Positions 5,204 through 39,979 of a stretch of DNA of 64,000 nt are shown in pieces (position 1 is the stretch's first letter; every line of letters begins with the position of its first letter). The translations under genes and the position numbers were made by a program. Under the pieces are notes generated by a model that was not told where the DNA came from, did not search any database, and saw only the letters and a list, made by a program, of their open reading frames with translations. The stretch is taken from assembly GCA_041581135.1 (NCBI GenBank), contig JBFGCM010000006.1, positions 4,482 to 68,481 of the forward strand, written 5' to 3'. Source of the stretch: Acidimicrobiia bacterium (GTDB lineage Bacteria > Actinomycetota > Acidimicrobiia > Spongiisociales > UBA5794).

Positions 5204-6985
5204 ATGGCTGACTACCGCGCCCCTCTGCGGGACATGAAGTTCGTTCTTCACCACGTCGCCGGCATCGATGAGCTGCTCGAGCTGGAGGCGTTCGCCCACG
5301 CCGAGCCCGACGTCGTTGCCGGAGCTCTGGAAGAAGCGGATCGCTTCTTCGCCGAGCAGGTGGCACCCACCAACCGGATCGGCGACACCGTGGGAAGCCG
5401 GCTCACCGAGCCGGGAGTGGTCGAAGCGCCCGACGAGTTCAAGCCGGTCTACGAGAAGTACGTGCATGCCGGATGGGGTGGGGTGCCGTTCCCGGCCGAG
5501 TACGGGGGTCACGGCTTCCCGTGGCTGGTCGGCATGGCGGTCCAGGAGATGTTCACGTCCGCCAACATGGCGTTCTCGCTGGTGCCGCTCCTGACGCAAG
5601 CCGGCATCCATGCCCTGCTCCTCCACGGTTCGGAGGAGCAGAAAGCCACCTATTTGGAGAAGATGATCACCGGGGAGTGGCCGGGCACCATGTGCCTCAC
5701 CGAACCCCACGCCGGTTCCGACGTCGGCGCGCTCAGCGCCAAGGCAGAACCGGGGCCGGACGGCACGTACCGGCTCACCGGCACCAAGATCTTCATCACG
5801 TGGGGTGAGCACGATCTCGCCGACAACATCATCCACCTGGTGCTGGCGCGGACGCCCGGCTCGCCGCCCGGAACGAAGGGCATCTCGCTGTTCATCGTTC
5901 CCAAGTTCCTGATCAACGCCGATGGCTCCCGTGGCGAGCGTAACGATGTGCATGTCGTGTCCATCGAGCACAAGCTCGGGATTCACGGTTCTCCGACGTG
6001 TGTGCTGTCGTTCGGCGAGAACGAGGGAGCGGTGGCCTACCTGGTCGGCGAAGAGCATCAGGGCATGCGGTACATGTTCACCATGATGAACAACGCTCGG
6101 CTCGGCGTGGGGCTCGAGGGCCTGGCGATCGCCGAACGCGCGTACCAGCAGGCGCTGACCTTCGCCCAGGAACGCCGCCAGGGCCGCGCCGTGGGCACTG
6201 CGCCCACGGAGAGCTCACTCATCATCGAGCACCCCGACGTTCGTCGCATGTTGATGACCATGAAGTCCCAGACCGAGGCCATGCGCTGTCTGGTGTATCT
6301 CAACGCGGCGCACATCGATCTCGCCGCCAATCATCCGGATGCAGAGGCACGTGCGTTCCACCAGGAGCGCGTCGATCTGTACACCCCGATCACGAAGGCA
6401 TGGTCGACCGATCTGGGAGTGGAGATCACCTCGTTGGGTATCCAGATCCACGGTGGCATGGGCTACGTCGAGGAGACCGGGGCGGCCCAGCACTGGCGGG
6501 ACGCCAGGATCGCGCCGATCTACGAAGGCACCAACGGCATCCAGGCGATCGACCTGGCGATGCGGAAACTCCCGATGCGAGAGGGGCGGGCCGTCGCCGA
6601 CCTGCTTGCCGAGATGCGAGCCCTCGACGAGGAGCTCTCCGCCCCGGAGTTGGCCGGCATGAGAGCGGCGTTGGCCGACGCGGTGGCAGCCCTCACTCAG
6701 GCGACGACCTGGCTCATCGCCTCGCGCAAGGAACCCAACGACGTGCTTGCCGGTGCCACGCCGTACCAGGAGATGTTCGGGATCGTGGTCGGCGGTTGGC
6801 TGATGGCACGGTCCGCCGTTGCCGCTTCGACCATGGCCGGAGACGACGACGGCTTCCACGCCGCCAAGGTCGACACCGCCCGCTTCTACTGCGAGCAGAT
6901 CCTGCCGCGGGCTCGTGGGCTGCTGCCTGCGGTGACGGCGGGCGCGCAGCCGTTGTACGCCATCGAGCCCAAGTGGTTGGGGTGA
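5204..6985 (+). CDS. Acyl-CoA dehydrogenase, long (FadE5-like) type with C-terminal extension
   Basis: The internal ATG at 5204 (MADYRAPLRDMKFVLHHV) lies in frame within the 748-aa track ORF. Acyl-CoA dehydrogenase motifs are present: TEPHAGSD, KIFITWGEHD, IHGGMGYVEETGAAQHWRDARIAPIYEGTNGIQ. The part upstream of 5204 belongs to the DUF385 pseudogene region. Confidence 0.85.
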   Translation: MADYRAPLRDMKFVLHHVAGIDELLELEAFAHAEPDVVAGALEEADRFFAEQVAPTNRIGDTVGSRLTEPGVVEAPDEFKPVYEKYVHAGWGGVPFPAEYGGHGFPWLVGMAVQEMFTSANMAFSLVPLLTQAGIHALLLHGSEEQKATYLEKMITGEWPGTMCLTEPHAGSDVGALSAKAEPGPDGTYRLTGTKIFITWGEHDLADNIIHLVLARTPGSPPGTKGISLFIVPKFLINADGSRGERNDVHVVSIEHKLGIHGSPTCVLSFGENEGAVAYLVGEEHQGMRYMFTMMNNARLGVGLEGLAIAERAYQQALTFAQERRQGRAVGTAPTESSLIIEHPDVRRMLMTMKSQTEAMRCLVYLNAAHIDLAANHPDAEARAFHQERVDLYTPITKAWSTDLGVEITSLGIQIHGGMGYVEETGAAQHWRDARIAPIYEGTNGIQAIDLAMRKLPMREGRAVADLLAEMRALDEELSAPELAGMRAALADAVAALTQATTWLIASRKEPNDVLAGATPYQEMFGIVVGGWLMARSAVAASTMAGDDDGFHAAKVDTARFYCEQILPRARGLLPAVTAGAQPLYAIEPKWLG

Positions 6986-34025: not shown

Positions 34026-34859
34026 TCAGCGAGCCGCCGTCCCGGCCAGGGCGGGTTCGTCCACCGGCTCCTCCTGCCAGGCCGGGCAGATCGCCTGGAA
34101 CGAGCACCAGTCACACAGACGGCTCACCCGAGCGGGGTAGTGGTCCCGTTCGATGGCACGGTTGATGGCATCCCACAGCGCCTGGACCTTCCGTTCGACG
34201 GCATCGAGCTGCGTATCGGTGACCGGGATCTCATAGACCGTCGGTCCGGTGAGGTACATGAGCTTGATCTTCGCCGGCGTGCGCCCGAGACGTTGCCGGA
34301 TGAGCAGCGCGTAGATCTTGAGGGCGAAGAACGCCGGCAGCGCATACCGCTCCGGCGGCGCCTTGCCGGACTTGTAGTCGGTGATGACGAGCCCGTCGGG
34401 CCCTTCTTCCATCCGATCCAGAATGCCCCGTAGGGTCATGTCGCCCAGCTCTTCGAGCATGTCGAGCTCGCGATCGATGGGGTCGAACGCCTGGGGGTCC
34501 TCGATGGCGAAGTAGTTGGCGAGGAGCGTCAGGCTCTCGATTCCCCACTCTCGCTCTTCGTCGACGGTTGCGAACAGCTCGTTGAACTCGAGTTCCTTGA
34601 GCTCCATCCAGGCCTCGCGGAACAGGTCATACAGGGCGTCGGGGGTGCGCTTGGGGGCAGGTAGGTCGAACAAGCGCTGGAGGGCGAGGTGGGCAGTCGT
34701 CCCCCGTGCCTGATAGACGCTGGTGGGTTCAGGTAGCTTGTCGATGGCCCGGAACTTGAAGAGCTGCGGGCACGTCTTGAAGTCACTCGCCCTGCTGGGC
34801 GAGAGCGTGGCGAGCTCCGTCACCTCATCTGCTTCGTCGCAAGCCTCTGATCCATGCAT
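34026..34859 (-). CDS. PD-(D/E)XK RecB-family / Cas4-like exonuclease with C-terminal Cys cluster
   Basis: ATG at 34859 (MHGSEACDEA...LSPSRASDFKTCPQLFKFR). Contains ITDYKSGK and C-terminal CDWCSFQAICPAW. Confidence 0.75.
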   Translation of the reverse strand: MHGSEACDEADEVTELATLSPSRASDFKTCPQLFKFRAIDKLPEPTSVYQARGTTAHLALQRLFDLPAPKRTPDALYDLFREAWMELKELEFNELFATVDEEREWGIESLTLLANYFAIEDPQAFDPIDRELDMLEELGDMTLRGILDRMEEGPDGLVITDYKSGKAPPERYALPAFFALKIYALLIRQRLGRTPAKIKLMYLTGPTVYEIPVTDTQLDAVERKVQALWDAINRAIERDHYPARVSRLCDWCSFQAICPAWQEEPVDEPALAGTAAR

Positions 34860-34916
34860 GAGCCGATCATACGTGACCACCCCGACAAAAACCACACGTG
34901 TGTAACTTTCGAGTGG

Positions 34917-34946
34917 TCGCGAAAACAAATACTGAGTCGCGAAAAC
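34917..34946 (+). promoter_or_regulatory. Two direct TCGCGAAAAC boxes 20 bp apart, upstream of the RNA-A promoter
   Basis: TCGCGAAAAC at 34917-34926 and 34937-34946. The second box starts 26 bp before the -35 element. The same layout is seen at 37953-37982. Confidence 0.55.
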
Positions 34947-34962
34947 GAAGTATGGCTTTGGG

Positions 34963-34991
34963 TTGACGGTGCCTGGTTCCGGACGTACCTT
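34963..34991 (+). promoter_or_regulatory. Sigma-70-type promoter of RNA-A (TTGACG, 17 nt, TACCTT)
   Basis: -35 TTGACG at 34963-34968 and -10 TACCTT at 34986-34991 (fits actinobacterial TANNNT). Both hexamers are identical at the paralogous locus. Confidence 0.6.
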
Positions 34992-34996
34992 TCCCA

Positions 34997-35272
34997 CGCT
35001 TCACCGGATCGCAAGATCTGGAGAAGTCGGGCCCGCCGGGTTTGTCCCCTCGGGGACCGGCCAAGAGGCTCTTCGGAGTCACTTGGTCGCCCGGTAGGCC
35101 CACGACCGAATGTGAGGGCTTCGGCCCATACGATCGGTTATCGGAGCGGGCGCAAGCCCGTTTCGAACCGCCTTCGGAAAACGGACCCGCAAGGGAAACC
35201 GGATCTGGAGGCAAAGAAGCCCCGAGAGGGCGGAGGCTCCGGCCAAAGCTTTCTCGGGGTTTCTCTTTGTTC
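34997..35272 (+). ncRNA. Candidate structured small RNA 'A' (about 275 nt), family unassigned
   Basis: Lies between the conserved promoter and a terminator-like hairpin. Carries a series of GNRA/UUCG-capped hairpins, e.g. CCGGATC-GCAA-GATCTGG, CCAAGaGGCTC-TTCG-GAGTCaCTTGG, GGGC-TTCG-GCCC, CGGGC-GCAA-GCCCG. Shares blocks GATCGGTT, TCGAACCG, CCCCGAGAGGGC and CTCGGGGTTTC with locus B. No convincing ORF. The 5' end is estimated, not mapped. Confidence 0.55.
35220..35271 (+). terminator. Intrinsic-terminator-like hairpin plus U-tract ending RNA-A
   Basis: CCCCGAGA (35220-35227) pairs with TCTCGGGG (35252-35259), followed by TTTCTCTTTGTT (35260-35271). Confidence 0.55.
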
Positions 35273-35588
35273 CCTTCTGGGGCCGCTCGAGCCACGGAAG
35301 CGCCAACCGGCTATTGAGGTGGGCGTGTCACGAAGACGGCAGTGTTGCGCGCTTCGAGACCGTGTAGGTGTCCCGCCGACTTGGCGCCCTCGAGTTGGTG
35401 GGCTTGGTGGTTCGGTGGCGATGGGGGGGCGTGGGCGCCGGCTCGTGGCCGTGGAGGCAACGGGACCGTCACGGGCACGGAGCCAGCCGACGGACGCGAC
35501 CGTTGGGGTAGCTTGAGATCCTCCAGTAGCGGGCAACGCCGGCCCTCCTCACTCAACCGGCAGTATCGCGATCGAGTCTGAGGATCAC

Positions 35589-36392
35589 ATGAGCTGTGTC
35601 ACACCAACAGACATCGAGGGTTTCGATTCCTATGAGCTCGGGTCGAGGGGCGACCGGCGTCGCGTCTACACCAGGGGTGGTCCTGATCGGCCGGCGGTCG
35701 TGCTGCTGCACGAGCTCCCGGGGATGGTCGAGGAGTGCATCGAGCTGGCACGACACCTGAGTGACCCTCATGACGGCCACGATGGATACCAGGTGCACAT
35801 GCCGCTGCTGTTTGGGACACCTGGTGAATCCGAGAATCCTCTCAACATGCTCCGGTACGGGTGGTGCATGCGCAAGGAGATCTACCTCTTCAAGGCAGGA
35901 GTGACGAGCCCGATCACTGCCTGGTTGGCCCGTCTAGTCCGGGAAGCGTCCACCCGTTCGGGATCCGAGCGGGTGGCAGTGATAGGGATGTGCCTGACCG
36001 GTGGCCTGGTATTCGGACTCCTCACCCAGACCAATGTCCGTGCCGTGGTCGCCAGCCAGCCGTCTGCTCCGTTTGGCGTGTTCTCGAGGAGCAAGAAGAA
36101 GAACGTGGGCCTGTCCGAGAAGGATCGCCGTGAGAACTTCGACTCGTCCACGCCGATCCTGGCGCTTCGGTATCGCGATGATTGGCGCTGCCCCCGGCTC
36201 AAGATGGAGGGTCTGGCTGAAGCCGCTGGGGTGTCGCTTCCCGAGCCGCCTGACAACGCCATCCAAGACGTGCAAGTGGGGAACATCCGGGTGATCGACA
36301 TTCCGGGGAGTGATCACGCGGTTCTCACGCTCGCACTCCACGATGACACCTACGCGAAGGTGCGGGAATTCCTCTGGGACCATTTGCAGTGA
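35589..36392 (+). CDS. Dienelactone hydrolase family protein
   Basis: 267 aa. PAVVLLHELPGM and the Cys nucleophile elbow VIGMCLTGG. GAGGA lies 6 nt upstream of the ATG. Confidence 0.7.
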   Translation: MSCVTPTDIEGFDSYELGSRGDRRRVYTRGGPDRPAVVLLHELPGMVEECIELARHLSDPHDGHDGYQVHMPLLFGTPGESENPLNMLRYGWCMRKEIYLFKAGVTSPITAWLARLVREASTRSGSERVAVIGMCLTGGLVFGLLTQTNVRAVVASQPSAPFGVFSRSKKKNVGLSEKDRRENFDSSTPILALRYRDDWRCPRLKMEGLAEAAGVSLPEPPDNAIQDVQVGNIRVIDIPGSDHAVLTLALHDDTYAKVREFLWDHLQ

Positions 36393-36547
36393 GCACCCGG
36401 TGAACAACACCAGAGCCCTCGTGGAAGCGCGGCGGCTGCCGCGCATCTGAAAGCGAGGCCCGTGGGGCCGATGCGATCTGGCATCTGGAAGGCACACCGA
36501 GGGCCGACCGATCTGAGTGAGAGGCTCCCACCCGATAGGCTGCGCCG

Positions 36548-37288
36548 ATGGACGTATACGGGCGGGTCAACATCCTCGACGGGCGGGCGGTCCGGCTTTC
36601 GCGCGGCGACGTGTCGACCGCCATCTCGTTGGAGGCCGATCCGGTCGCCCGGGCCCAAGGCTGGGTCGCCAAGGGTGTGCACCGGCTGCTGATCGTCGAC
36701 CTGGATGCCGCCGCCTTCGGGAACTACGCGAACCGGGATTTGATCGGGCGTCTCATCAGGGAGGTGGACGTGCCGGTCTTGGCCGCCGGTGGCATCCGGT
36801 CGGTGGCGGAGGCGGAGCGGATGCTGGCGGCGGGGGCGTGGCGGGTGGCCATGGGTACGGCTGCCATCATCGATCAGCACATGACCTGGGACCTGTGCCG
36901 CGATCATCCGGGTCGGATCGTCATCAGCCTCGACCTCAAACCGACCGAAGAGCTGGTCATCCGGGGCTGGAAAGAGGGCAGCGGCAAGTTCCTCGAGGAG
37001 GCGCTCATCGAGTTGTCCGCCGCCGGAGCGGCCGGGTACCTCATCACCGAAGCGGGACGGGACGCGCTCATGGAGCCGCCGAACCACAGCTTCCTCGAGA
37101 TGGCCCTGAGCTCGGCAAGCGGCGACGGCGAAGTGATCGCTGCGGGCGGGGTGCGCAACCTGGCCGATCTCGAGGCATTGCGCGCCATCGAGGTCGACGG
37201 TCGCAAGCTCGCCGGCGTCGTCGTCGGCCGCGAGGTCACCGAGGGTCGTTTCACCATCGAACAGGCCGTGGCCCTCATCCAGGGGTGA
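36548..37288 (+). CDS. HisA/PriA-like (beta/alpha)8-barrel paralog outside a his operon
   Basis: Aligns by eye along its whole length with HisA/PriA: ILDGRAVRL, LLIVDLDAAAFG, LAAGGIRS, MGTAAI, VISLDLK, RGWKEGSG, VIAAGGVRNLADL, GVVVGRE. The first catalytic Asp position reads Asn (GRVNIL). Confidence 0.65.
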   Translation: MDVYGRVNILDGRAVRLSRGDVSTAISLEADPVARAQGWVAKGVHRLLIVDLDAAAFGNYANRDLIGRLIREVDVPVLAAGGIRSVAEAERMLAAGAWRVAMGTAAIIDQHMTWDLCRDHPGRIVISLDLKPTEELVIRGWKEGSGKFLEEALIELSAAGAAGYLITEAGRDALMEPPNHSFLEMALSSASGDGEVIAAGGVRNLADLEALRAIEVDGRKLAGVVVGREVTEGRFTIEQAVALIQG

Positions 37289-37359
37289 TCGCGGCTTGTC
37301 GCGGCACCACGGGCATCTACGGTCTTGCCAAGGACGTATCTATCCGCCGAGTTGCGCCA

Positions 37360-37386
37360 GGCCTTGGTTCCGATTTCTCCAAGGCC
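37360..37386 (+). terminator. Stem-loop after the HisA-like gene
   Basis: GGCCTTGG (37360-37367) and CCAAGGCC (37379-37386) with an 11-nt loop. No clear U-tract. Confidence 0.3.
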
Positions 37387-37437
37387 CCTTCCTCGCTGAC
37401 CTCTAGCGTTGGGGGCAGGCGAGCAAAGGAGCACTCG

Positions 37438-37845
37438 GTGTCATCGACGGTCATTCCCACGTTCCGCTACAAGAACGCCAAGGCAGCGATCGACTTCCTC
37501 ACCCAGGCATTCGGCTTCACCGCGCAGGCCGTGCACGCAGAAGGGGAGACCGTCGTCCACGCACAACTGGTGCACGGCACCGGGATGATCATGCTCGGGA
37601 CAGACACTGAGGACGAGTGGGGCTCGAACGTGACGACCCCCGACGAGGCTTCCAGACCTGCCGGCGCCGTCTACGTGATCGTCCCCGACGTGCATGCTCA
37701 TGCTGCGGCGGCACGCGTTGCAGGGGCCGAGATCATCATGGAGCCCGAGGCCCAGGACTACGGGGGCCACAACTATGCCGCGAAGGATCCGGAGGGGTAC
37801 ATCTGGAGCTTCGGGGACTACGACCCCTGGGCCGATACCGCATGA
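37438..37845 (+). CDS. VOC (glyoxalase/bleomycin-resistance fold) family protein
   Basis: GTG at 37438 (residue 308 of the track ORF) preceded by AAAGGAG. Sequence VIPTFRYKNAKAAIDFLTQAFGF...YAAKDPEGYIWSFGDYDPW is typical of the VOC family. Confidence 0.75.
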   Translation: MSSTVIPTFRYKNAKAAIDFLTQAFGFTAQAVHAEGETVVHAQLVHGTGMIMLGTDTEDEWGSNVTTPDEASRPAGAVYVIVPDVHAHAAAARVAGAEIIMEPEAQDYGGHNYAAKDPEGYIWSFGDYDPWADTA

Positions 37846-37878
37846 GGCGGCGGGTGGGGCAGGCGAGAGCAGCGCCGA

Positions 37879-37897
37879 ACGGGTCCTTGGGACCCGT
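37879..37897 (+). terminator. Stem-loop after the VOC gene
   Basis: ACGGGTCC-TTG-GGACCCGT, 34 nt after the stop codon. No U-tract. Confidence 0.3.
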
Positions 37898-37952
37898 CGG
37901 GACCACCATGCTCGCGCCGCCGCGAGGCGTCACAAGACGTTCGATTCCTCAG

Positions 37953-37982
37953 TCGCGAAAGTTCTTCTTGAGTCGCGAAAAC
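37953..37982 (+). promoter_or_regulatory. Two direct TCGCGAAA boxes 20 bp apart, upstream of the RNA-B promoter
   Basis: TCGCGAAAGT at 37953-37962 and TCGCGAAAAC at 37973-37982. The second box starts 26 bp before the -35 element, as at locus A. Confidence 0.55.
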
Positions 37983-37998
37983 GAAATACGAATATGGC

Positions 37999-38028
37999 TT
38001 GACGCTGGCATCCGCGACCCGGTACCTT
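37999..38028 (+). promoter_or_regulatory. Sigma-70-type promoter of RNA-B (TTGACG, 18 nt, TACCTT)
   Basis: -35 TTGACG at 37999-38004 and -10 TACCTT at 38023-38028. Hexamers identical to locus A. Confidence 0.6.
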
Positions 38029-38034
38029 TCCGGA

Positions 38035-38421
38035 GTCGCTGGGAAGGGAAACCGCCCCAGCGGAACTCGAAGGCCCGAAAGGGTCGGCGGGGCTCGCCCG
38101 GCCCGCAAGGGGCGGGGAGTGGTCCCGGAACATGCCGCAGCCCGAAAGGGAGGCGGAGCGCCCCGAAAGGGGGCGGCCGGGGTGGCCCTTCGGGGAGACC
38201 TCGGGCGCAGAACGGATCGGTTGACCCCGGGCTTCGGCTCGAGGTCGGCACCTCGGAGACGGGCTTCGGCCCGAGCTGCGAGAGTCGAACCGGCCGCAAG
38301 GCTGGTTGGACGCTCCCGGAGGGATATCACCCGAGAGGGTGAGGGAACCAAAAGGGAATAGGGAACACCCCGAGAGGGCACGAGCTTCGGCAACCGGCTC
38401 CCTCGGGGTTTCCCGCGTCTT
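38035..38421 (+). ncRNA. Candidate structured small RNA 'B' (about 390 nt), paralog of RNA-A, family unassigned
   Basis: Dense run of tetraloop hairpins: CGCTGGG...CCCAGCG (38037-38061), three CCCGAAAGGG units, GACCCCGGGC-TTCG-GCTCGAGGTC, GGGC-TTCG-GCCC, AACCGGCC-GCAA-GGCTGGTT, TCACCC-GAGA-GGGTGA (38327-38342). Ends in the shared CCCCGAGAGGGC...CTCGGGGTTTC element. No downstream + strand gene to regulate. The 5' end is estimated. Confidence 0.55.
38368..38421 (+). terminator. Terminator-like hairpin ending RNA-B
   Basis: CCCCGAG (38368-38374) pairs with CTCGGGG (38402-38408), followed by TTTCCCGCGTCTT. The U-tract is weaker than at locus A. Confidence 0.4.
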
Positions 38422-38621
38422 GGGCCCGATGAGGCTCGACGTTTCAATCTTGGCCGACCGAGCGGGCCCGGCGCCGCCTCCCATTGAGCACCGGCATCCA
38501 TTTCAGGACACGAACGACACCGGACGAGTCGCCACGTTCGTCATCGACTCCCACGCCGGGCGATCCACCAGAGGTCCTCGGACGTCGGCGAACAAACCCT
38601 CTCAGCTGTGGGCGCTTCGGG

Positions 38622-39182
38622 CTAGGTCACGATGATTGGGAAGAATCCACGGTCGTAGGCGTCACCAACATCGTGGAAGTCGCCCCGAAAGACACATGAA
38701 TTACCGAAGTATGTCGTTGCGGGGACTCCAGCGGGGATCTCGATGGCAAGGGAGACGTTCTCAGTAGCGCCGGTCGTCACCGTCAGGCCTTCCACATCGG
38801 GCGGTCCTCCGGCGGGAGGGAATCGGGGATCGGCCGTTGAGAATGCCGCCCCGAGATCCGAGATCGGATTGGCCGGACCCACCCATGCCTGGACATGGAT
38901 TCGCGACCGGTCGAAGGGATCGGGATTGTGGATGCCGACGGTATACGAGATCGTGTCGCCGGCTGTCCGCACGCCGGTCCAGGACTGATACACGATCATC
39001 GGTGACTTGGCTCGGCCCATCTTTCGCATGAGCTCGTGGTCGTCGGGTGCACTGAAGGCGAGCCCCCTCCGTGCTGCCTTCTTGCGCTCCCGTTCGATCC
39101 GCGACCTGAGCTGCCTGAGCGGGTCCTTAGGCCGTGAACGCTGCCCTGCACCTCGCGAGGGTTTGGCGGGCTGCTTGGCCAT
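38622..39182 (-). CDS. Hypothetical protein (186 aa): basic N-terminus plus beta-rich C-terminal domain
   Basis: ATG at 39182 (MAKQPAKPSRGAGQRSRPKD..., residue 43 of the track ORF) preceded by AAGGAGG. No motif recognised. Confidence 0.55.
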   Translation of the reverse strand: MAKQPAKPSRGAGQRSRPKDPLRQLRSRIERERKKAARRGLAFSAPDDHELMRKMGRAKSPMIVYQSWTGVRTAGDTISYTVGIHNPDPFDRSRIHVQAWVGPANPISDLGAAFSTADPRFPPAGGPPDVEGLTVTTGATENVSLAIEIPAGVPATTYFGNSCVFRGDFHDVGDAYDRGFFPIIVT

Positions 39183-39346
39183 GGCAAACCTCCTTGCTGA
39201 ACCTCTGCGACCGTCACGGGACGACCGAGCCAAGCCTACGCCTCCACGCCATGGCGCCCACACCTCTCCGGCCGGCCCGAGTGCCGCCTCATCCGCCGAA
39301 TCCGCCACGGGCCCGGCGGGCCCGGCACTGCGGATAGGATGGCGCC

Positions 39347-39979
39347 ATGGCCTATTCCGCCGACTTGCTCAGCGACGACGAAGAGATCATCCGGGAGTTC
39401 CGACCTCACTGGAAGATGCTGGCGATCCCGTTCTTCTGGATCATCGTGGGCATCGCCATCATCATCGCCGCCTGGTCGGTGATCCCACCCGACGACAATG
39501 CGCTTGTCGACTGGATCATCACCGGCGTCGTCGTACTGCTGCTCATCCCGCTGGCGTTCTCGCCCGTCGTGGCGTGGTGGTTCACGCACTACATCCTCAC
39601 CAACGAGCGGTTGATCACCCGCTCCGGTGTCATCGCCCGCAGCGGCATCGAGATGCCGCTCGAGAACATCACCAACGTGCTGTTCAGCCAGAACGTGTTC
39701 GAGCGCGTCTTGCGGTTCGGTGACCTCCTCATCGAGTCGGCCGGTGAGACCGGACAGAGTCGCTTCGCCGACATCCCCGACCCCCAAGAGTTCCAGGCCT
39801 TGCTCTATCGGATCCGTGAGGCCCGCACCAATCTCCTCGCCGGCTTGGAGGCACCTGTATCCGCAGCCGACGCCGGTCCGGAGGAGCGCATCGCCAAGCT
39901 CGCCAAGCTGCGGGACGACGGAGCGATCACCCAGGAAGAGTTCGAGGAGAAGAAGGCCAAGCTCCTCGACGAGATCTGA
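39347..39979 (+). CDS. Membrane bacterial PH-domain (bPH_2/DUF304, YdbT-like) protein with C-terminal SHOCT motif
   Basis: DEEIIREFRPHW, two TM helices, ILTNERLITRSGVIARSGIEMPLENITNV...GDLLIES, and C-terminal KLAKLRDDGAITQEEFEEKKAKLL (SHOCT-like). Confidence 0.7.
   Translation: MAYSADLLSDDEEIIREFRPHWKMLAIPFFWIIVGIAIIIAAWSVIPPDDNALVDWIITGVVVLLLIPLAFSPVVAWWFTHYILTNERLITRSGVIARSGIEMPLENITNVLFSQNVFERVLRFGDLLIESAGETGQSRFADIPDPQEFQALLYRIREARTNLLAGLEAPVSAADAGPEERIAKLAKLRDDGAITQEEFEEKKAKLLDEI

What the first reader, a model, noticed from the sequence alone, without database searches (positions are those of the whole stretch)
34911..38421. Two paralogous stand-alone structured RNA loci bracket a three-gene cluster
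Seen directly: the + strand segments 34917-34991 and 37953-38028 have the same architecture. TCGCGAAA(A/G)(C/T) occurs twice exactly 20 bp apart, then 26 bp to TTGACG, then 17 or 18 nt to TACCTT. The 16-mer GAGTCGCGAAAACGAA is identical in both. Both are followed by long non-coding stretches of stacked tetraloop hairpins. Both end in the same element, CCCCGAGAGGGC...CTCGGGGTTTC. Locus A sits upstream and locus B downstream of the dienelactone hydrolase / HisA-like / VOC genes (35589-37845), all on one strand. Inference: these are two copies of one RNA gene family, each driven by a strong and probably activator-dependent promoter. I do not recognise them as tmRNA, RNase P, SRP, 6S or any riboswitch class. 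Hypothesis only: the size class, strong promoter and stand-alone placement are what one sees for abundant regulatory RNAs such as 6S or the actinobacterial Ms1.
Basis: partly seen in the sequence, partly recalled or inferred. Interest (0 to 1): 0.78.

Follow-up and report, generated by a model that had tools for sequence, protein, structure and literature searches.

The report
New structured RNA family in Acidimicrobiia
The two loci are real non-coding RNA genes from a previously undescribed family found across the Acidimicrobiia, and their special promoter module is shared only with a DNA-precursor gene (nrdJ) and a DNA-damage gene; what the RNAs do is still unknown.

Summary
Locus A (about 34998-35265) and locus B (about 38035-38414) each have two GTCGCGAAA boxes 20 bp apart, a -35/-10 promoter at fixed spacing, a non-coding body of short helices capped by UUCG or GNRA loops, and the same long terminator.

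No Rfam 15 family matches. The same gene architecture recurs in dozens of Acidimicrobiia genomes and metagenome contigs. It sits at one syntenic site, between a RecB-family PD-(D/E)XK nuclease gene and a bPH_2/SHOCT gene, usually as a tandem short-plus-long pair. In this window three genes have been inserted between the two units.

Covariation supports the fold of locus A's own orthologue group and of the short family. Bodies change fast by gain and loss of hairpins. The boxes, the 5' hairpin and the terminator sequence stay conserved.

The box module otherwise precedes only nrdJ and a LexA-box gene.

Best reading: stable, abundant trans-acting RNAs that are the main output of an unknown activator linked to DNA replication or damage. 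They probably bind or titrate a protein. The predicted folds do not support a 6S/Ms1-like role, but it is not excluded.

The parts
34916..34944 (+). Activator module of locus A: two GTCGCGAAA boxes (34916-34924 and 34936-34944), 20-bp period, centred about -78 and -58 from the predicted start
   Evidence: The consensus from 86 promoters is T-CGCGAAA-N13-T-CGCGAAAAC, with TTG starting 25 nt after the C of the second CGCGAAA.
34963..34991 (+). Core promoter of locus A: -35 TTGACG (34963-34968), 17-nt spacer, -10 TACCTT (34986-34991)
   Evidence: The same geometry is found in all family members. The start near 34996-34998 is inferred, not measured.
34998..35265 (+). RNA A, about 268 nt. It has a 5' hairpin P1 (34998-35027, GCAA loop), a three-way-junction domain (about 35029-35101), three further hairpins, and a terminator (35214-35264).
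   Evidence: MFE -169.8 kcal/mol, z = -10. The orthologue alignment A3 has 84 pairs, 27 with changes on both sides, against 15.3+-2.3 in shuffles (0 of 500). CM R1 hits 35136-35263 at 70 bits, E = 5e-18.
35220..35262 (+). Family terminator of A: CCCCGAGAGGGC ... CTCGGGG + UUU
   Evidence: The outer stem is conserved in sequence across the family.
37952..37980 (+). Activator module of locus B: GTCGCGAAA boxes at 37952-37960 and 37972-37980
37999..38028 (+). Core promoter of locus B: -35 TTGACG (37999-38004), 18-nt spacer, -10 TACCTT (38023-38028)
38035..38414 (+). RNA B, about 380 nt. It has a 5' hairpin P1 (38035-38062; outer stem, 2x2 purine internal loop, GAAA loop), an array of about 12 hairpins capped by GAAA, GCAA, UUCG or GAGA loops, a purine-rich GGGAA-repeat stretch (about 38344-38367), and a terminator (38368-38411).
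   Evidence: MFE -222.4 kcal/mol, z = -4.85, against z = -1.97 on the - strand. P1 and the terminator align and covary with related second units, but the body is lineage-specific. R1 hits 38280-38412 with E = 1e-7.
38409..38418 (+). Conserved tail TTTCCCGCGT after the B terminator. Its reverse complement resembles a box (ACGCGGGAAA).
   Evidence: 50 of 68 distinct family terminators are followed by TTTYYCGCGT. Locus A lacks it.
34026..34859 (-). Divergent flank gene that marks the syntenic site: a PD-(D/E)XK 'RecB-family exonuclease' (Cas4-like)
   Evidence: Pfam PDDEXK_1, E = 6e-34. It is conserved next to the RNA units in about 20 loci.
39347..39979 (+). Downstream flank gene that marks the syntenic site: a bPH_2 + SHOCT protein
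   Evidence: Pfam. It is found downstream of the long unit in 14 loci.
35589..37845 (+). Dienelactone hydrolase, HisA-like and VOC genes: a lineage-specific insertion between the two RNA units, not part of the RNA system
   Evidence: Pfam. These genes are absent between the units in all other loci.

Best explanation
Loci A and B are two independently transcribed, non-coding, very stable RNAs. They belong to a previously undescribed, modular RNA family that is found throughout the class Acidimicrobiia.

Each gene has four parts:
1. Two 9-bp direct repeats (GTCGCGAAA, 20-bp period), centred about -78 and -58. These positions fit an activator site rather than an UP element.
2. A near-consensus primary-sigma-type promoter.
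3. An RNA that opens with a bipartite GNRA-capped hairpin at its 5' end and continues with a lineage-specific number of short G+C helices. About 80% of the loops are UUCG or GNRA, and the linkers are 1-4 purines.
4. A long terminator hairpin that is conserved in sequence.

The minimal members (about 80-95 nt) are just the 5' hairpin plus the terminator. Longer members (up to about 750 nt) are expansions between these two handles.

Shown here: the gene architecture, conservation, covariation, synteny, non-coding nature and strand.

Inferred: the RNAs accumulate to high levels. They act in trans by binding or titrating a protein partner through their conserved handles and repeated hairpins, rather than by base pairing. 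They are the main output of an unidentified DNA-binding activator. The only other targets of that activator found here are nrdJ and a LexA-controlled gene, so the RNAs would be tied to DNA replication or damage status. The design logic resembles GacA-RsmX/Y/Z or AgrA-RNAIII.
For: Architecture and recurrence:
- Exact box-pair scans returned about 25 Acidimicrobiia genome loci and about 36 metagenome units with the same -35/-10 spacing, a hairpin body and the CCCCGAGAGGG terminator.
- In all, 86 distinct promoters have fixed geometry.

Synteny:
- The units lie between the PD-(D/E)XK nuclease gene and the bPH_2 gene in about 20 loci.

Structure:
- z = -10 for A and -4.9 for B on the + strand only.
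- Of 261 MFE hairpin loops in 29 units, 84 are UUCG, 47 GCAA, 36 GAAA and 19 GAGA.
- Linkers are 80% purine and mostly 1-4 nt.

Covariation:
- Short family: 24 of 45 pairs have changes on both sides, against 11.5+-2.1 in shuffles (0 of 500) and 2-11 in slid controls.
- Locus A orthologue group: 27 of 84 pairs, against 15.3+-2.3 (0 of 500) and at most 7 in slid controls.
- The 5' hairpin covaries in nearly all units.

Other points:
- Non-coding: GC by codon position is flat.
- Dosage dynamics: an exact tandem duplicate of a 483-nt unit in L071, and three units in L185.
- Regulon: the same box module precedes nrdJ (Pfam Ribonuc_red_2_N; loci). It also precedes a 265-aa gene whose promoter carries CGAAC-N4-GTTCG between -35 and -10.
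- Loops of 4 nt and linkers of 1-4 nt leave little single-stranded sequence for base pairing.
Against: - There are no expression data. Transcript ends and abundance are predictions from sequence.
- No partner protein and no activator have been identified.
- Bodies evolve so fast (B against L179, L025 and L136) that a sequence-specific binding role can reside only in the conserved handles.
The regulon may therefore be larger and less specific.
- A purine-rich stretch before the terminator could act as a base-pairing seed.
Confidence: 0.55

Rival explanations
1. Functional analogue of 6S or Ms1: the RNAs bind RNA polymerase (holoenzyme or core) and store or sequester it.
For: - They are stand-alone, probably abundant, highly structured RNAs of 150-600 nt with strong promoters.
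- They occur in Actinomycetota, where Ms1 replaces 6S.
- Ms1 evolves so fast that the Streptomyces and Mycobacterium copies share no detectable sequence similarity, and Rfam finds Ms1 only near Mycobacteria (PMC9130861). An Rfam miss is therefore weak evidence.
- Ms1 has extra 5' and 3' hairpins, as these RNAs do.
- In many long units the 5' end pairs just before the terminator, forming a closing stem.
Against: - There is no large central bubble. The longest internal unpaired run in MFE folds has a median of 4 nt (A 3, B 10, maximum 12) over 54 units.
- The fold is multi-branched, not a rod.
- Ms1 synteny (HAD-IB hydrolase plus oxidoreductase; PMC9130861) is not present.
- Minimal family members of 80-95 nt are far too short for a 6S/Ms1 fold.
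- The family has two to three units per genome with unrelated bodies.
Confidence: 0.15
2. Base-pairing sRNAs: the purine-rich single-stranded stretch just upstream of the terminator is a seed that pairs with pyrimidine-rich mRNA sites. Examples are the GGGAA repeats at 38344-38367 in B and GGAGGCAAAGAAG in A. The hairpins only stabilise the RNA.
For: - The minimal members look like classic sRNAs: 5' hairpin, short linker, terminator.
- An A/G-rich linker precedes almost every terminator.
- There is a weak PrrB/RsmZ-like hit over the B 3' region (20.8 bits, E = 0.08).
Against: - The linker is short and not conserved in sequence.
- GGAGG is not enriched (53 observed against about 64 expected).
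- The model does not explain why hundreds of nucleotides of hairpins are kept and covary.
Confidence: 0.12
3. Cis-acting leaders or attenuators: A regulates the dienelactone hydrolase operon and the long unit regulates bPH_2, through the conserved terminator. The alternative CCC-GAGA-GGG mini-hairpin could act as an antiterminator.
For: - All units point towards a downstream same-strand gene in most genomes.
- The CCCCGAGAGGG arm can form either a GAGA mini-hairpin or the terminator stem.
- The spacing to bPH_2 is short, about 60-100 nt.
Against: - B is followed by a convergent ORF, not a same-strand gene.
- The gene downstream of the first unit differs between genomes: another RNA unit, ferritin-like, MFS, Cu-binding or DLH.
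- bPH_2 genes carry their own TAnnnT-N7-ATG leaderless-type promoter after the terminator.
- The 12-bp terminator stem is far more stable than the mini-hairpin.
- There is no riboswitch match.
Confidence: 0.07
4. DNA-level or non-functional element: arrays of intergenic palindromes (REP- or MITE-like), or a highly transcribed insulator whose RNA product is irrelevant.
For: - Units are bracketed by box-like sequences in inverted orientation: boxes upstream and TTTYYCGCGT downstream.
- Units duplicate in tandem.
- Bodies turn over fast.
Against: - There is strong strand asymmetry of folding with G-U pairs.
- Compensatory changes preserve RNA pairs.
- The elements are not dispersed. There are only two in 64 kb, always at one syntenic site.
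- They are absent from viral contigs.
Confidence: 0.05
5. Protein-coding ORFs. Public gene calling places a 184-aa ORF on the minus strand across locus B.
For: Long ORFs overlap both loci. L001 carries a called 184-aa gene at 1473-2027 with no Pfam hit.
Against: - GC at codon positions 1, 2 and 3 is flat (about 0.6-0.7 each) in all overlapping ORFs. Neighbouring genes show GC2 of 0.39-0.48 and GC3 of 0.75-0.88.
- The bodies are not conserved as protein between relatives, and indels follow hairpin units.
Confidence: 0.01

Closest known systems
Ms1 RNA (MTS2823 / scr3559), the actinobacterial sRNA that binds RNAP core
   Same: - A stand-alone, G+C-rich, highly structured, probably abundant RNA of a few hundred nt in Actinomycetota.
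- Very fast sequence evolution with conserved gene neighbourhood.
- Hairpins at both ends.
   Different: - Ms1 has different synteny: HAD-IB hydrolase and oxidoreductase, against RecB-family nuclease and bPH_2 here.
- No central bubble is predicted here.
- This family has 1-3 units per genome.
- Its size range of 80-750 nt includes members too small for an Ms1 fold.
- A conserved box module and terminator sequence are not described for Ms1.
6S RNA (Rfam RF00013)
   Same: The size class of some members, a strong promoter, and (in many long units) a closing stem formed by the 5' end and the region before the terminator.
   Different: - No CM match even at E <= 10.
- The fold is branched and multi-hairpin, not a rod with a large open-promoter-like bubble.
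RsmX/Y/Z and CsrB/C sponge RNAs with the GacA upstream activating sequence
   Same: - The gene design: a conserved upstream activator site at about -60 to -80, several paralogous sRNA genes with unrelated bodies, a variable number of repeated hairpins, a strong conserved terminator, and copy-number variation.
- The activator's regulon consists mainly of the sRNA genes.
- There is a sub-threshold PrrB/RsmZ hit over the 3' part of B.
   Different: - The hairpin loops are UUCG or GNRA tetraloops, not GGA motifs.
- No CsrA partner is known in this class.
- The box sequence is unrelated to the GacA site.
- The hit is far below the gathering score (20.8 against 44 bits).
S. aureus RNAIII (agr P3, AgrA) and C. 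perfringens VR-RNA (VirR) (comparison from my own knowledge)
   Same: Two 9-bp direct repeats with a period of about 20-21 bp just upstream of the -35 drive a long multi-hairpin regulatory RNA, and the activator has very few other targets.
   Different: - RNAIII acts through C-rich loops that base-pair with mRNAs and also encodes a peptide. Here the loops are 4-nt tetraloops with no coding potential.
- The family of the activator is unknown.
Large 'ornate' bacterial RNAs of unknown or structural function (raiA, OLE, GOLLD, ROOL)
   Same: Densely structured and rich in GNRA loops, with function not deducible from sequence. Each is restricted to particular lineages.
   Different: - Those RNAs have conserved complex cores. 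Here only the two terminal handles are conserved, and the interior is a fast-evolving set of simple hairpins.
- No 11-nt tetraloop receptor motifs were found.
- No Rfam match.

Membership tests
6S RNA (RF00013) | Match to the family covariance model | tested here: not met
   No hit at gathering score in the window. None at E <= 10 in 34800-38700. None at E <= 0.1 in five related loci.
6S RNA (RF00013) | Long rod with a large central bubble that mimics an open promoter | tested here: not met
   MFE and consensus folds are branched. The longest internal unpaired run is 3 nt in A and 10 nt in B, with a median of 4 over 54 units. This is prediction only.
6S RNA (RF00013) | Binds the primary-sigma holoenzyme and templates pRNA | not testable with these tools
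   Needs co-immunoprecipitation and in vitro transcription.
Ms1 RNA | Conserved neighbourhood: HAD-IB hydrolase ('inhibition of morphological differentiation') and oxidoreductase (PMC9130861) | tested here: not met
   The flanks are a PD-(D/E)XK nuclease and bPH_2/SHOCT in the window and about 20 loci.
Ms1 RNA | Sequence or CM similarity to known Ms1 | tested here: inconclusive
   No Rfam hit at all, to any family, in the scans run. However, Rfam recovers Ms1 only near Mycobacteria, and Streptomyces Ms1 has no detectable similarity to M. smegmatis Ms1 (PMC9130861).
Ms1 RNA | Central bubble plus short hairpins at the 5' and 3' ends | tested here: inconclusive
   Terminal hairpins are present. 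No large bubble is predicted.
Ms1 RNA | Binds RNAP core lacking sigma | not testable with these tools
   Experimental.
CsrB/RsmZ sponge RNAs (clan CL00106) | CM match | tested here: not met
   The only hit is PrrB_RsmZ at 38267-38411, 20.8 bits against a gathering score of 44, E = 0.079.
CsrB/RsmZ sponge RNAs (clan CL00106) | Many GGA motifs presented in hairpin loops | tested here: not met
   About 80% of 261 predicted hairpin loops are UUCG or GNRA, and GGA loops number 2. GGA occurs mainly in short linkers.
CsrB/RsmZ sponge RNAs (clan CL00106) | A CsrA/RsmA partner encoded in the genome | not tested
   No whole genome was available. Taxon-restricted protein searches are not possible with these tools.
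The family defined here (CGCGAAA-box / CCCCGAGAGGG-terminator RNAs of Acidimicrobiia) | Two (G)TCGCGAAA boxes with a 20-bp period, TTG starting 25 nt after the C of the second CGCGAAA, and TAnnTT 17-18 nt after the -35 hexamer | tested here: met
   Both A and B. Consensus from 86 promoters.
The family defined here (CGCGAAA-box / CCCCGAGAGGG-terminator RNAs of Acidimicrobiia) | A 5' bipartite hairpin with a purine internal loop and GNRA cap, beginning within a few nt of the start | tested here: met
   A: 34998-35027 (GCAA loop; its interruptions are single-nt bulges rather than a 2x2 loop). B: 38035-38062 (2x2 loop, GAAA).
The family defined here (CGCGAAA-box / CCCCGAGAGGG-terminator RNAs of Acidimicrobiia) | Sequence-conserved terminator RMCCCCGAGAGGGY...(UUCG)...CUCGGGGUUU | tested here: met
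   35220-35262 and 38368-38411. R1 hits with E = 5e-18 and 1e-7.
The family defined here (CGCGAAA-box / CCCCGAGAGGG-terminator RNAs of Acidimicrobiia) | Location between the RecB-family PD-(D/E)XK nuclease gene and the bPH_2/SHOCT gene | tested here: met
   Met, but with four inserted ORFs in this window.
REP/MITE-like dispersed palindromes | Many dispersed copies per genome, with no strand-specific RNA constraints | tested here: not met
   Only two copies in 64 kb. One syntenic site. Strand-asymmetric folding and compensatory changes.

The most novel reading that the evidence does not exclude
The RNAs are the dedicated effectors of a still unknown transcription factor in Acidimicrobiia that responds to replication stress or DNA damage. 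The factor's regulon would be essentially these RNA genes plus nrdJ and an SOS gene. The RNAs themselves would be a new kind of hyper-stable 'handle-and-expansion' riboregulator. Two conserved terminal hairpins carry the function, such as sequestering RNAP, an RNase or a repair nuclease. The interior is a freely expandable array of tetraloop hairpins that sets stability or valency.
Probability: 0.25. Interest if true: 0.85.

Novelty: new variant of a known kind. Interest (0 to 1): 0.72.

Why it matters
- I found no described small or structured regulatory RNA for Acidimicrobiia in the searches run here. The class is abundant in oceans, sediments, soils and wastewater, and few members are cultured.
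- This family gives the class its first candidate major riboregulator. It comes with a covariance model, a diagnostic syntenic site and a defined promoter module.
- The shared boxes tie a non-coding RNA to ribonucleotide reductase and to an SOS gene. That makes a concrete question testable: is there an RNA arm of the actinobacterial response to replication stress or DNA damage, next to LexA and PafBC?
- The architecture is an unusual natural example of RNA built for stability. It has conserved end handles, an interior that grows and shrinks by whole tetraloop hairpins, and about 80% UUCG or GNRA loops.
- In practice, it also flags ORFs that are called across these loci in public MAG annotations and are probably false.

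Tried and rejected
- Rfam: gathering-score scan of the whole window, E-value scan of the region, and scans of related loci. Nothing was found except chance-level miRNA and RsmZ hits.
- Viral contigs: 0 matches to the terminator pattern and 3 probably random box matches, so a phage origin is dropped.
- Literature: searches for Acidimicrobiia sRNAs, 6S and ncRNA motifs, and for the box sequence itself, found nothing relevant.
- Ms1 membership: rejected on synteny.
- Anti-Shine-Dalgarno sponge: GGAGG is not enriched.
- GAAA/11-nt-receptor self-assembly: no receptor motifs.
- Coding potential: no codon periodicity.
- Structure downstream of A (35269-35588): unremarkable, z = -1.4.
- Identity of the box-binding factor: I compared the box from memory with the known actinobacterial motifs for LexA, PafBC/RecA-NDp, NrdR, GlnR, MtrA, PhoP, ClgR and DnaA. 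None fits. No regulator gene is consistently adjacent.
- Full-length alignment of B with its positional counterparts: only P1, a few hairpins and the terminator align.
- The 265-aa LexA-box gene has no Pfam or NCBIfam match.

Full report
**1. Observation**

- TCGCGAAAR occurs four times in the whole 64-kb window, as two pairs exactly 20 bp apart: 34917/34937 and 37953/37973. Shuffles give 0.9 on average.
- The 16-mer GAGTCGCGAAAACGAA is identical at 34934 and 37970.
- TTGACG begins 26 bp after the second box in both loci. TACCTT follows after 17 nt in A and 18 nt in B.
- Both loci end in CCCCGAGAGGGC...CTCGGGGTTT.
- Apart from promoter and terminator, the two bodies do not align convincingly.
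- Pfam confirms the three intervening genes as dienelactone hydrolase, His_biosynth and glyoxalase/VOC. The flanks are a PD-(D/E)XK nuclease (divergent, 34026-34859) and, further downstream, a bPH_2/SHOCT protein (39347-39979).

**2. RNA, not protein, and on the + strand**

- RNA A (34996-35268) folds at -169.8 kcal/mol, z = -10.0. Its complement folds at -123.1, z = -2.4.
- RNA B folds at -222.4, z = -4.9. Its complement folds at -186.6, z = -2.0.
- The 320 nt between A's terminator and the hydrolase gene are unremarkable (z = -1.4).
- All ORFs that overlap A or B have flat GC at the three codon positions (about 0.6-0.7). Neighbouring genes show GC2 of 0.39-0.48 and GC3 of 0.75-0.88.
- A and B are the only clusters in the window of hairpins with at least 4 bp capped by UUCG or GNRA, and only on the + strand.

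**3. Known families**

- No Rfam 15 family reaches its gathering score anywhere in the window.
- At E <= 10 the region gives only chance-level hits. The best is PrrB/RsmZ over 38267-38411, at 20.8 bits against a gathering score of 44.
- Twenty related loci give nothing but two tRNAs elsewhere.
- Five related loci give nothing at E <= 0.1.

**4. Relatives**

About 25 of them are Acidimicrobiia MAGs, or MAGs whose neighbouring proteins are clearly Acidimicrobiia. In these, the boxes are followed at the same distance by TTGnnn, 17-18 nt, TAnnTT, and then by hairpins with GNRA or UUCG loops.
- A metagenome scan with the boxes plus TTG gave 120 more loci. After removing low-GC chance matches, these hold about 36 further RNA units.
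- Altogether 86 distinct promoters share a rigid geometry: T-CGCGAAA-N13-T-CGCGAAAAC, with TTG starting 25 nt after the C of the second CGCGAAA.
- The terminator pattern is absent from IMG/VR viral contigs.

**5. Synteny and the meaning of 'bracketing'**

- tblastn with the window's proteins shows that the RNA units lie between the divergent PD-(D/E)XK 'RecB-family exonuclease' gene and the bPH_2/SHOCT gene in about 20 loci. Look-ups of nuclease homologues add more, sometimes with an MFS gene in between.
- The usual arrangement is a tandem pair. A short unit (about 145-180 nt) sits next to the nuclease gene and a long unit (about 250-600 nt) next to bPH_2. Each has its own boxes, promoter and terminator.
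- L071 carries an exact second copy of its 483-nt long unit. L185 has two near-identical short units plus a long one.
- In the window, the hydrolase, HisA-like and VOC genes lie between the two units, and a 228-aa ORF lies between B and bPH_2. No other locus has these insertions. The three-gene cluster is therefore an insertion into an RNA locus, not a functional partner.

**6. Anatomy of the family**

- Every unit starts within a few nucleotides of the predicted start with a bipartite hairpin: a covarying outer stem, a 2x2 or 3x3 purine internal loop (often tandem G·A), a short inner stem and a GNRA loop.
- Every unit ends with a long hairpin whose outer stem is conserved in sequence, RMCCCCGAGAGGGY...CUCGGGG.
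- In 50 of 68 distinct cases the hairpin is followed by UUUYYCGCGU. The reverse complement of this tail resembles a box.
- Between these handles lie from zero to more than fifteen short G+C helices. Of 261 predicted hairpin loops in 29 units, 84 are UUCG, 47 GCAA, 36 GAAA and 19 GAGA.
- Unpaired linkers are mostly 1-4 nt and 80% purine.
- The smallest members (79-93 nt) are essentially the 5' hairpin plus the terminator. The largest reach about 750 nt.
- In many long units the extreme 5' end pairs just before the terminator and closes the body.

**7. Covariation**

- Short family, ten short units (alignment A2): a consensus of four helices with 45 pairs, 24 of which change on both sides while keeping the pair. 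Column shuffles give 11.5+-2.1 (0 of 500 reach the observed value). Slid-partner controls give 2-11.
- A covariance model built from A2 (R1) finds the 3' 130-150 nt of almost every unit. This includes window 35136-35263 (70 bits, E = 5e-18) and 38280-38412 (33 bits, E = 1e-7). It finds nothing else of comparable score in the window: the only other hit (16.7 bits) is the reverse strand of A's own terminator.
- Locus A has a close orthologue in a Logan contig whose nuclease is 84% identical (L120). The RNAs are 85% identical, and 89 of 99 pairs are kept.
- Locus A also has more distant orthologues (L063, L250, L253, L255) that share its 5' hairpin, three-way-junction domain and terminator. In this six-sequence alignment (A3), 27 of 84 pairs show changes on both sides, against 15.3+-2.3 in shuffles (0 of 500) and at most 7 in slid controls.
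- Locus B shares its 5' hairpin, a few hairpins and its terminator with the positional counterparts L025, L136, L179, L133, L134, L192 and L174. Its interior is lineage-specific.
- Bodies therefore evolve by gain and loss of whole hairpins, while pairing is maintained within lineages.

**8. The promoter module and its other targets**

- The boxes are centred near -78 and -58. This is too far upstream for a classical UP element and typical of class-I activator sites (inference).
- Among all scan hits with promoter geometry, only two other target classes appear.
  - An extra promoter upstream of the class II ribonucleotide reductase gene nrdJ: L035, L048, L050, L077, L137, L163, L176, L190, L191, L220. 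The product is identified by Pfam Ribonuc_red_2_N, E = 1e-38.
  - The promoter of a conserved 265-aa protein of unknown family. Its -35/-10 spacer holds CGAAC-N4-GTTCG, the actinobacterial LexA box (motif from my own knowledge): L038, L130, L149, L152, L187, L193, L194, L234, L240.
- The divergent nuclease gene next to the RNA locus carries a leaderless promoter of the form TGTCR-N3-N8-TAnnnT-N5-7-ATG in the window (34866-34888) and in at least ten other loci. This matches the RecA-NDp motif through which PafBC activates DNA-damage genes. The motif is from my own knowledge (Gamulin 2004); its role is described in PMC6789036.
- The RNA genes thus sit in, and share regulatory DNA with, a replication and repair context. 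The scans were exact-match and truncated, so the regulon may be larger.

**9. How it most likely works**

- Shown: these are independent, non-coding, structured RNA genes with a conserved regulatory module.
- Inferred:
  - A 5' hairpin at the very start, a long terminator, almost complete pairing and hyper-stable loops predict a long-lived and therefore abundant RNA.
  - Four-nucleotide loops and 1-4-nt linkers leave little room for base-pairing seeds.
  - The parts conserved in sequence rather than only in structure are the two end handles, so that is where a partner would bind.
  - Tandem duplication and 1-3 units per genome suggest that dosage matters.
- The overall design is a dedicated activator site, several sRNA genes with unrelated bodies, repeated hairpins and a conserved terminator. 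This parallels GacA-RsmX/Y/Z and AgrA-RNAIII (my own knowledge).
- I therefore favour a trans-acting RNA that binds or titrates a protein, switched on by an activator linked to replication or damage. My confidence is about 0.9 that it is an RNA gene family, about 0.6 for the regulon link, and about 0.3 for titration as the mechanism.

**10. The 6S/Ms1 hypothesis**

- Against it:
  - Ms1 is defined by RNAP-core binding, a central bubble with extra terminal hairpins, and a neighbourhood of HAD-IB hydrolase and oxidoreductase (PMC9130861). The neighbourhood is different here.
  - No large bubble is predicted. The median longest internal loop is 4 nt (A 3, B 10).
  - Minimal members are far too small.
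- For it:
  - Ms1 evolves so fast that sequence and CM searches fail even between Streptomyces and Mycobacterium, so a functional analogy cannot be excluded by computation. I give it 0.15.
- Other rivals are scored in the report sections: a base-pairing sRNA that uses the purine-rich stretch before the terminator, cis-acting leaders, DNA-level palindromes, and coding ORFs.

**11. Novelty and limits**

- I found no description of this family in Rfam 15 or in the searchable literature.
- It is a new family of a known general kind, the stand-alone bacterial structured sRNA. It has an unusual handle-and-expansion architecture and a new promoter motif.
- Nothing here measures transcription. Start sites, ends, abundance, the activator and the partner are all predictions.

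Noticed in passing
window 34866-34888 (- strand), upstream of the nuclease ATG at 34859: TTGTCGGGG-TGGTCACG-TATGAT, then 6 nt, then ATG. This is a leaderless promoter matching the RecA-NDp (PafBC-type) DNA-damage motif tTGTCRgtg-N8-TAnnnT (motif from memory). The same layout precedes the orthologous nuclease gene in L120, the L010 group, L025, L056, L062, L063, L071, L092 and L095.
   Followed up: partly
window 34893-34902: A perfect 10-bp palindrome, CACACGTGTG (extended ...GTGTAAC), lies between the nuclease promoter and box 1. Similar ACAC-N-GTGT / GTTACA...TGTAAC elements overlap the proximal nrdJ promoters in L035, L048 and L077. It may be an NrdR-type operator.
   Followed up: no
L035, L048, L050, L077, L137, L163, L176, L190, L191, L220 (upstream of nrdJ): The same CGCGAAA box pair plus promoter drives a short hairpin transcript that reads into the nrdJ promoter region. 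That region also holds DnaA-box-like TGTGGATAA sequences and a conserved CUAGGGG...CCCCAxxAUCUAG 5'-UTR stem.
   Followed up: partly
L038, L130, L149, L152, L187, L193, L194, L234, L240: The box pair sits upstream of a promoter whose spacer is a LexA-type box (CGAAC-N4-GTTCG). The promoter drives a conserved 265-aa protein with an N-terminal coiled-coil-like region and a HSDGRCGRLGCGVYA motif. It has no Pfam or NCBIfam match. It may be an SOS-induced cell-cycle factor.
   Followed up: partly
window 38409-38418, and 50 of 68 family terminators in other loci: The terminator is followed by a conserved TTTYYCGCGT. Its reverse complement resembles the upstream box, so most units are bracketed by box-like elements in inverted orientation. 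This could reflect looping, a roadblock or a functional 3' tail. Locus A lacks it.
   Followed up: partly
window 37930-38484 (- strand), equal to L001 1473-2027: Public gene calling on the sister assembly GCA_041568835.1 places a 184-aa hypothetical protein across RNA B on the opposite strand. The codon-position GC is flat (0.63/0.69/0.69), so it is probably a false gene call.
   Followed up: yes
window 38622-39308 (- strand): This 228-aa ORF between RNA B and bPH_2 has no Pfam hit and only a weak coding signature (GC1/2/3 = 0.65/0.58/0.70). It is present in L001 but in no other related locus. It is either a recent insertion or not a real gene.
   Followed up: no
L120 (rc about 1745-1810), L250, L253, L255, L092, L071: just downstream of RNA units: Short tandem repeats often follow the units in several lineages. 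Examples are CCAGTCT x7, TCTGGCATCTGGTT x4, GTACCAAGT-type repeats and GGCCTT x3. The window has none.
   Followed up: no
L071 941-1501 and 1634-2194; L185 (rc 5667-6645): L071 has an exact tandem duplication of a whole 483-nt unit, including its promoter. L185 has two near-identical short units plus a long one. Copy number at this locus changes quickly.
   Followed up: partly
window 38300-38367: The 3' part of RNA B carries four GGGA-type repeats (GGAGGGAU, GAGGGAAC, AAGGGAAU, UAGGGAAC) in a partly unpaired stretch. This explains the sub-threshold PrrB/RsmZ hit.
   Followed up: partly
L235 (rc about 1242-1375): A lower-GC contig of unknown taxon has the same box pair and promoter, driving only a single hairpin-terminator transcript of about 50 nt. 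The promoter module may extend beyond the lineages sampled.
   Followed up: no
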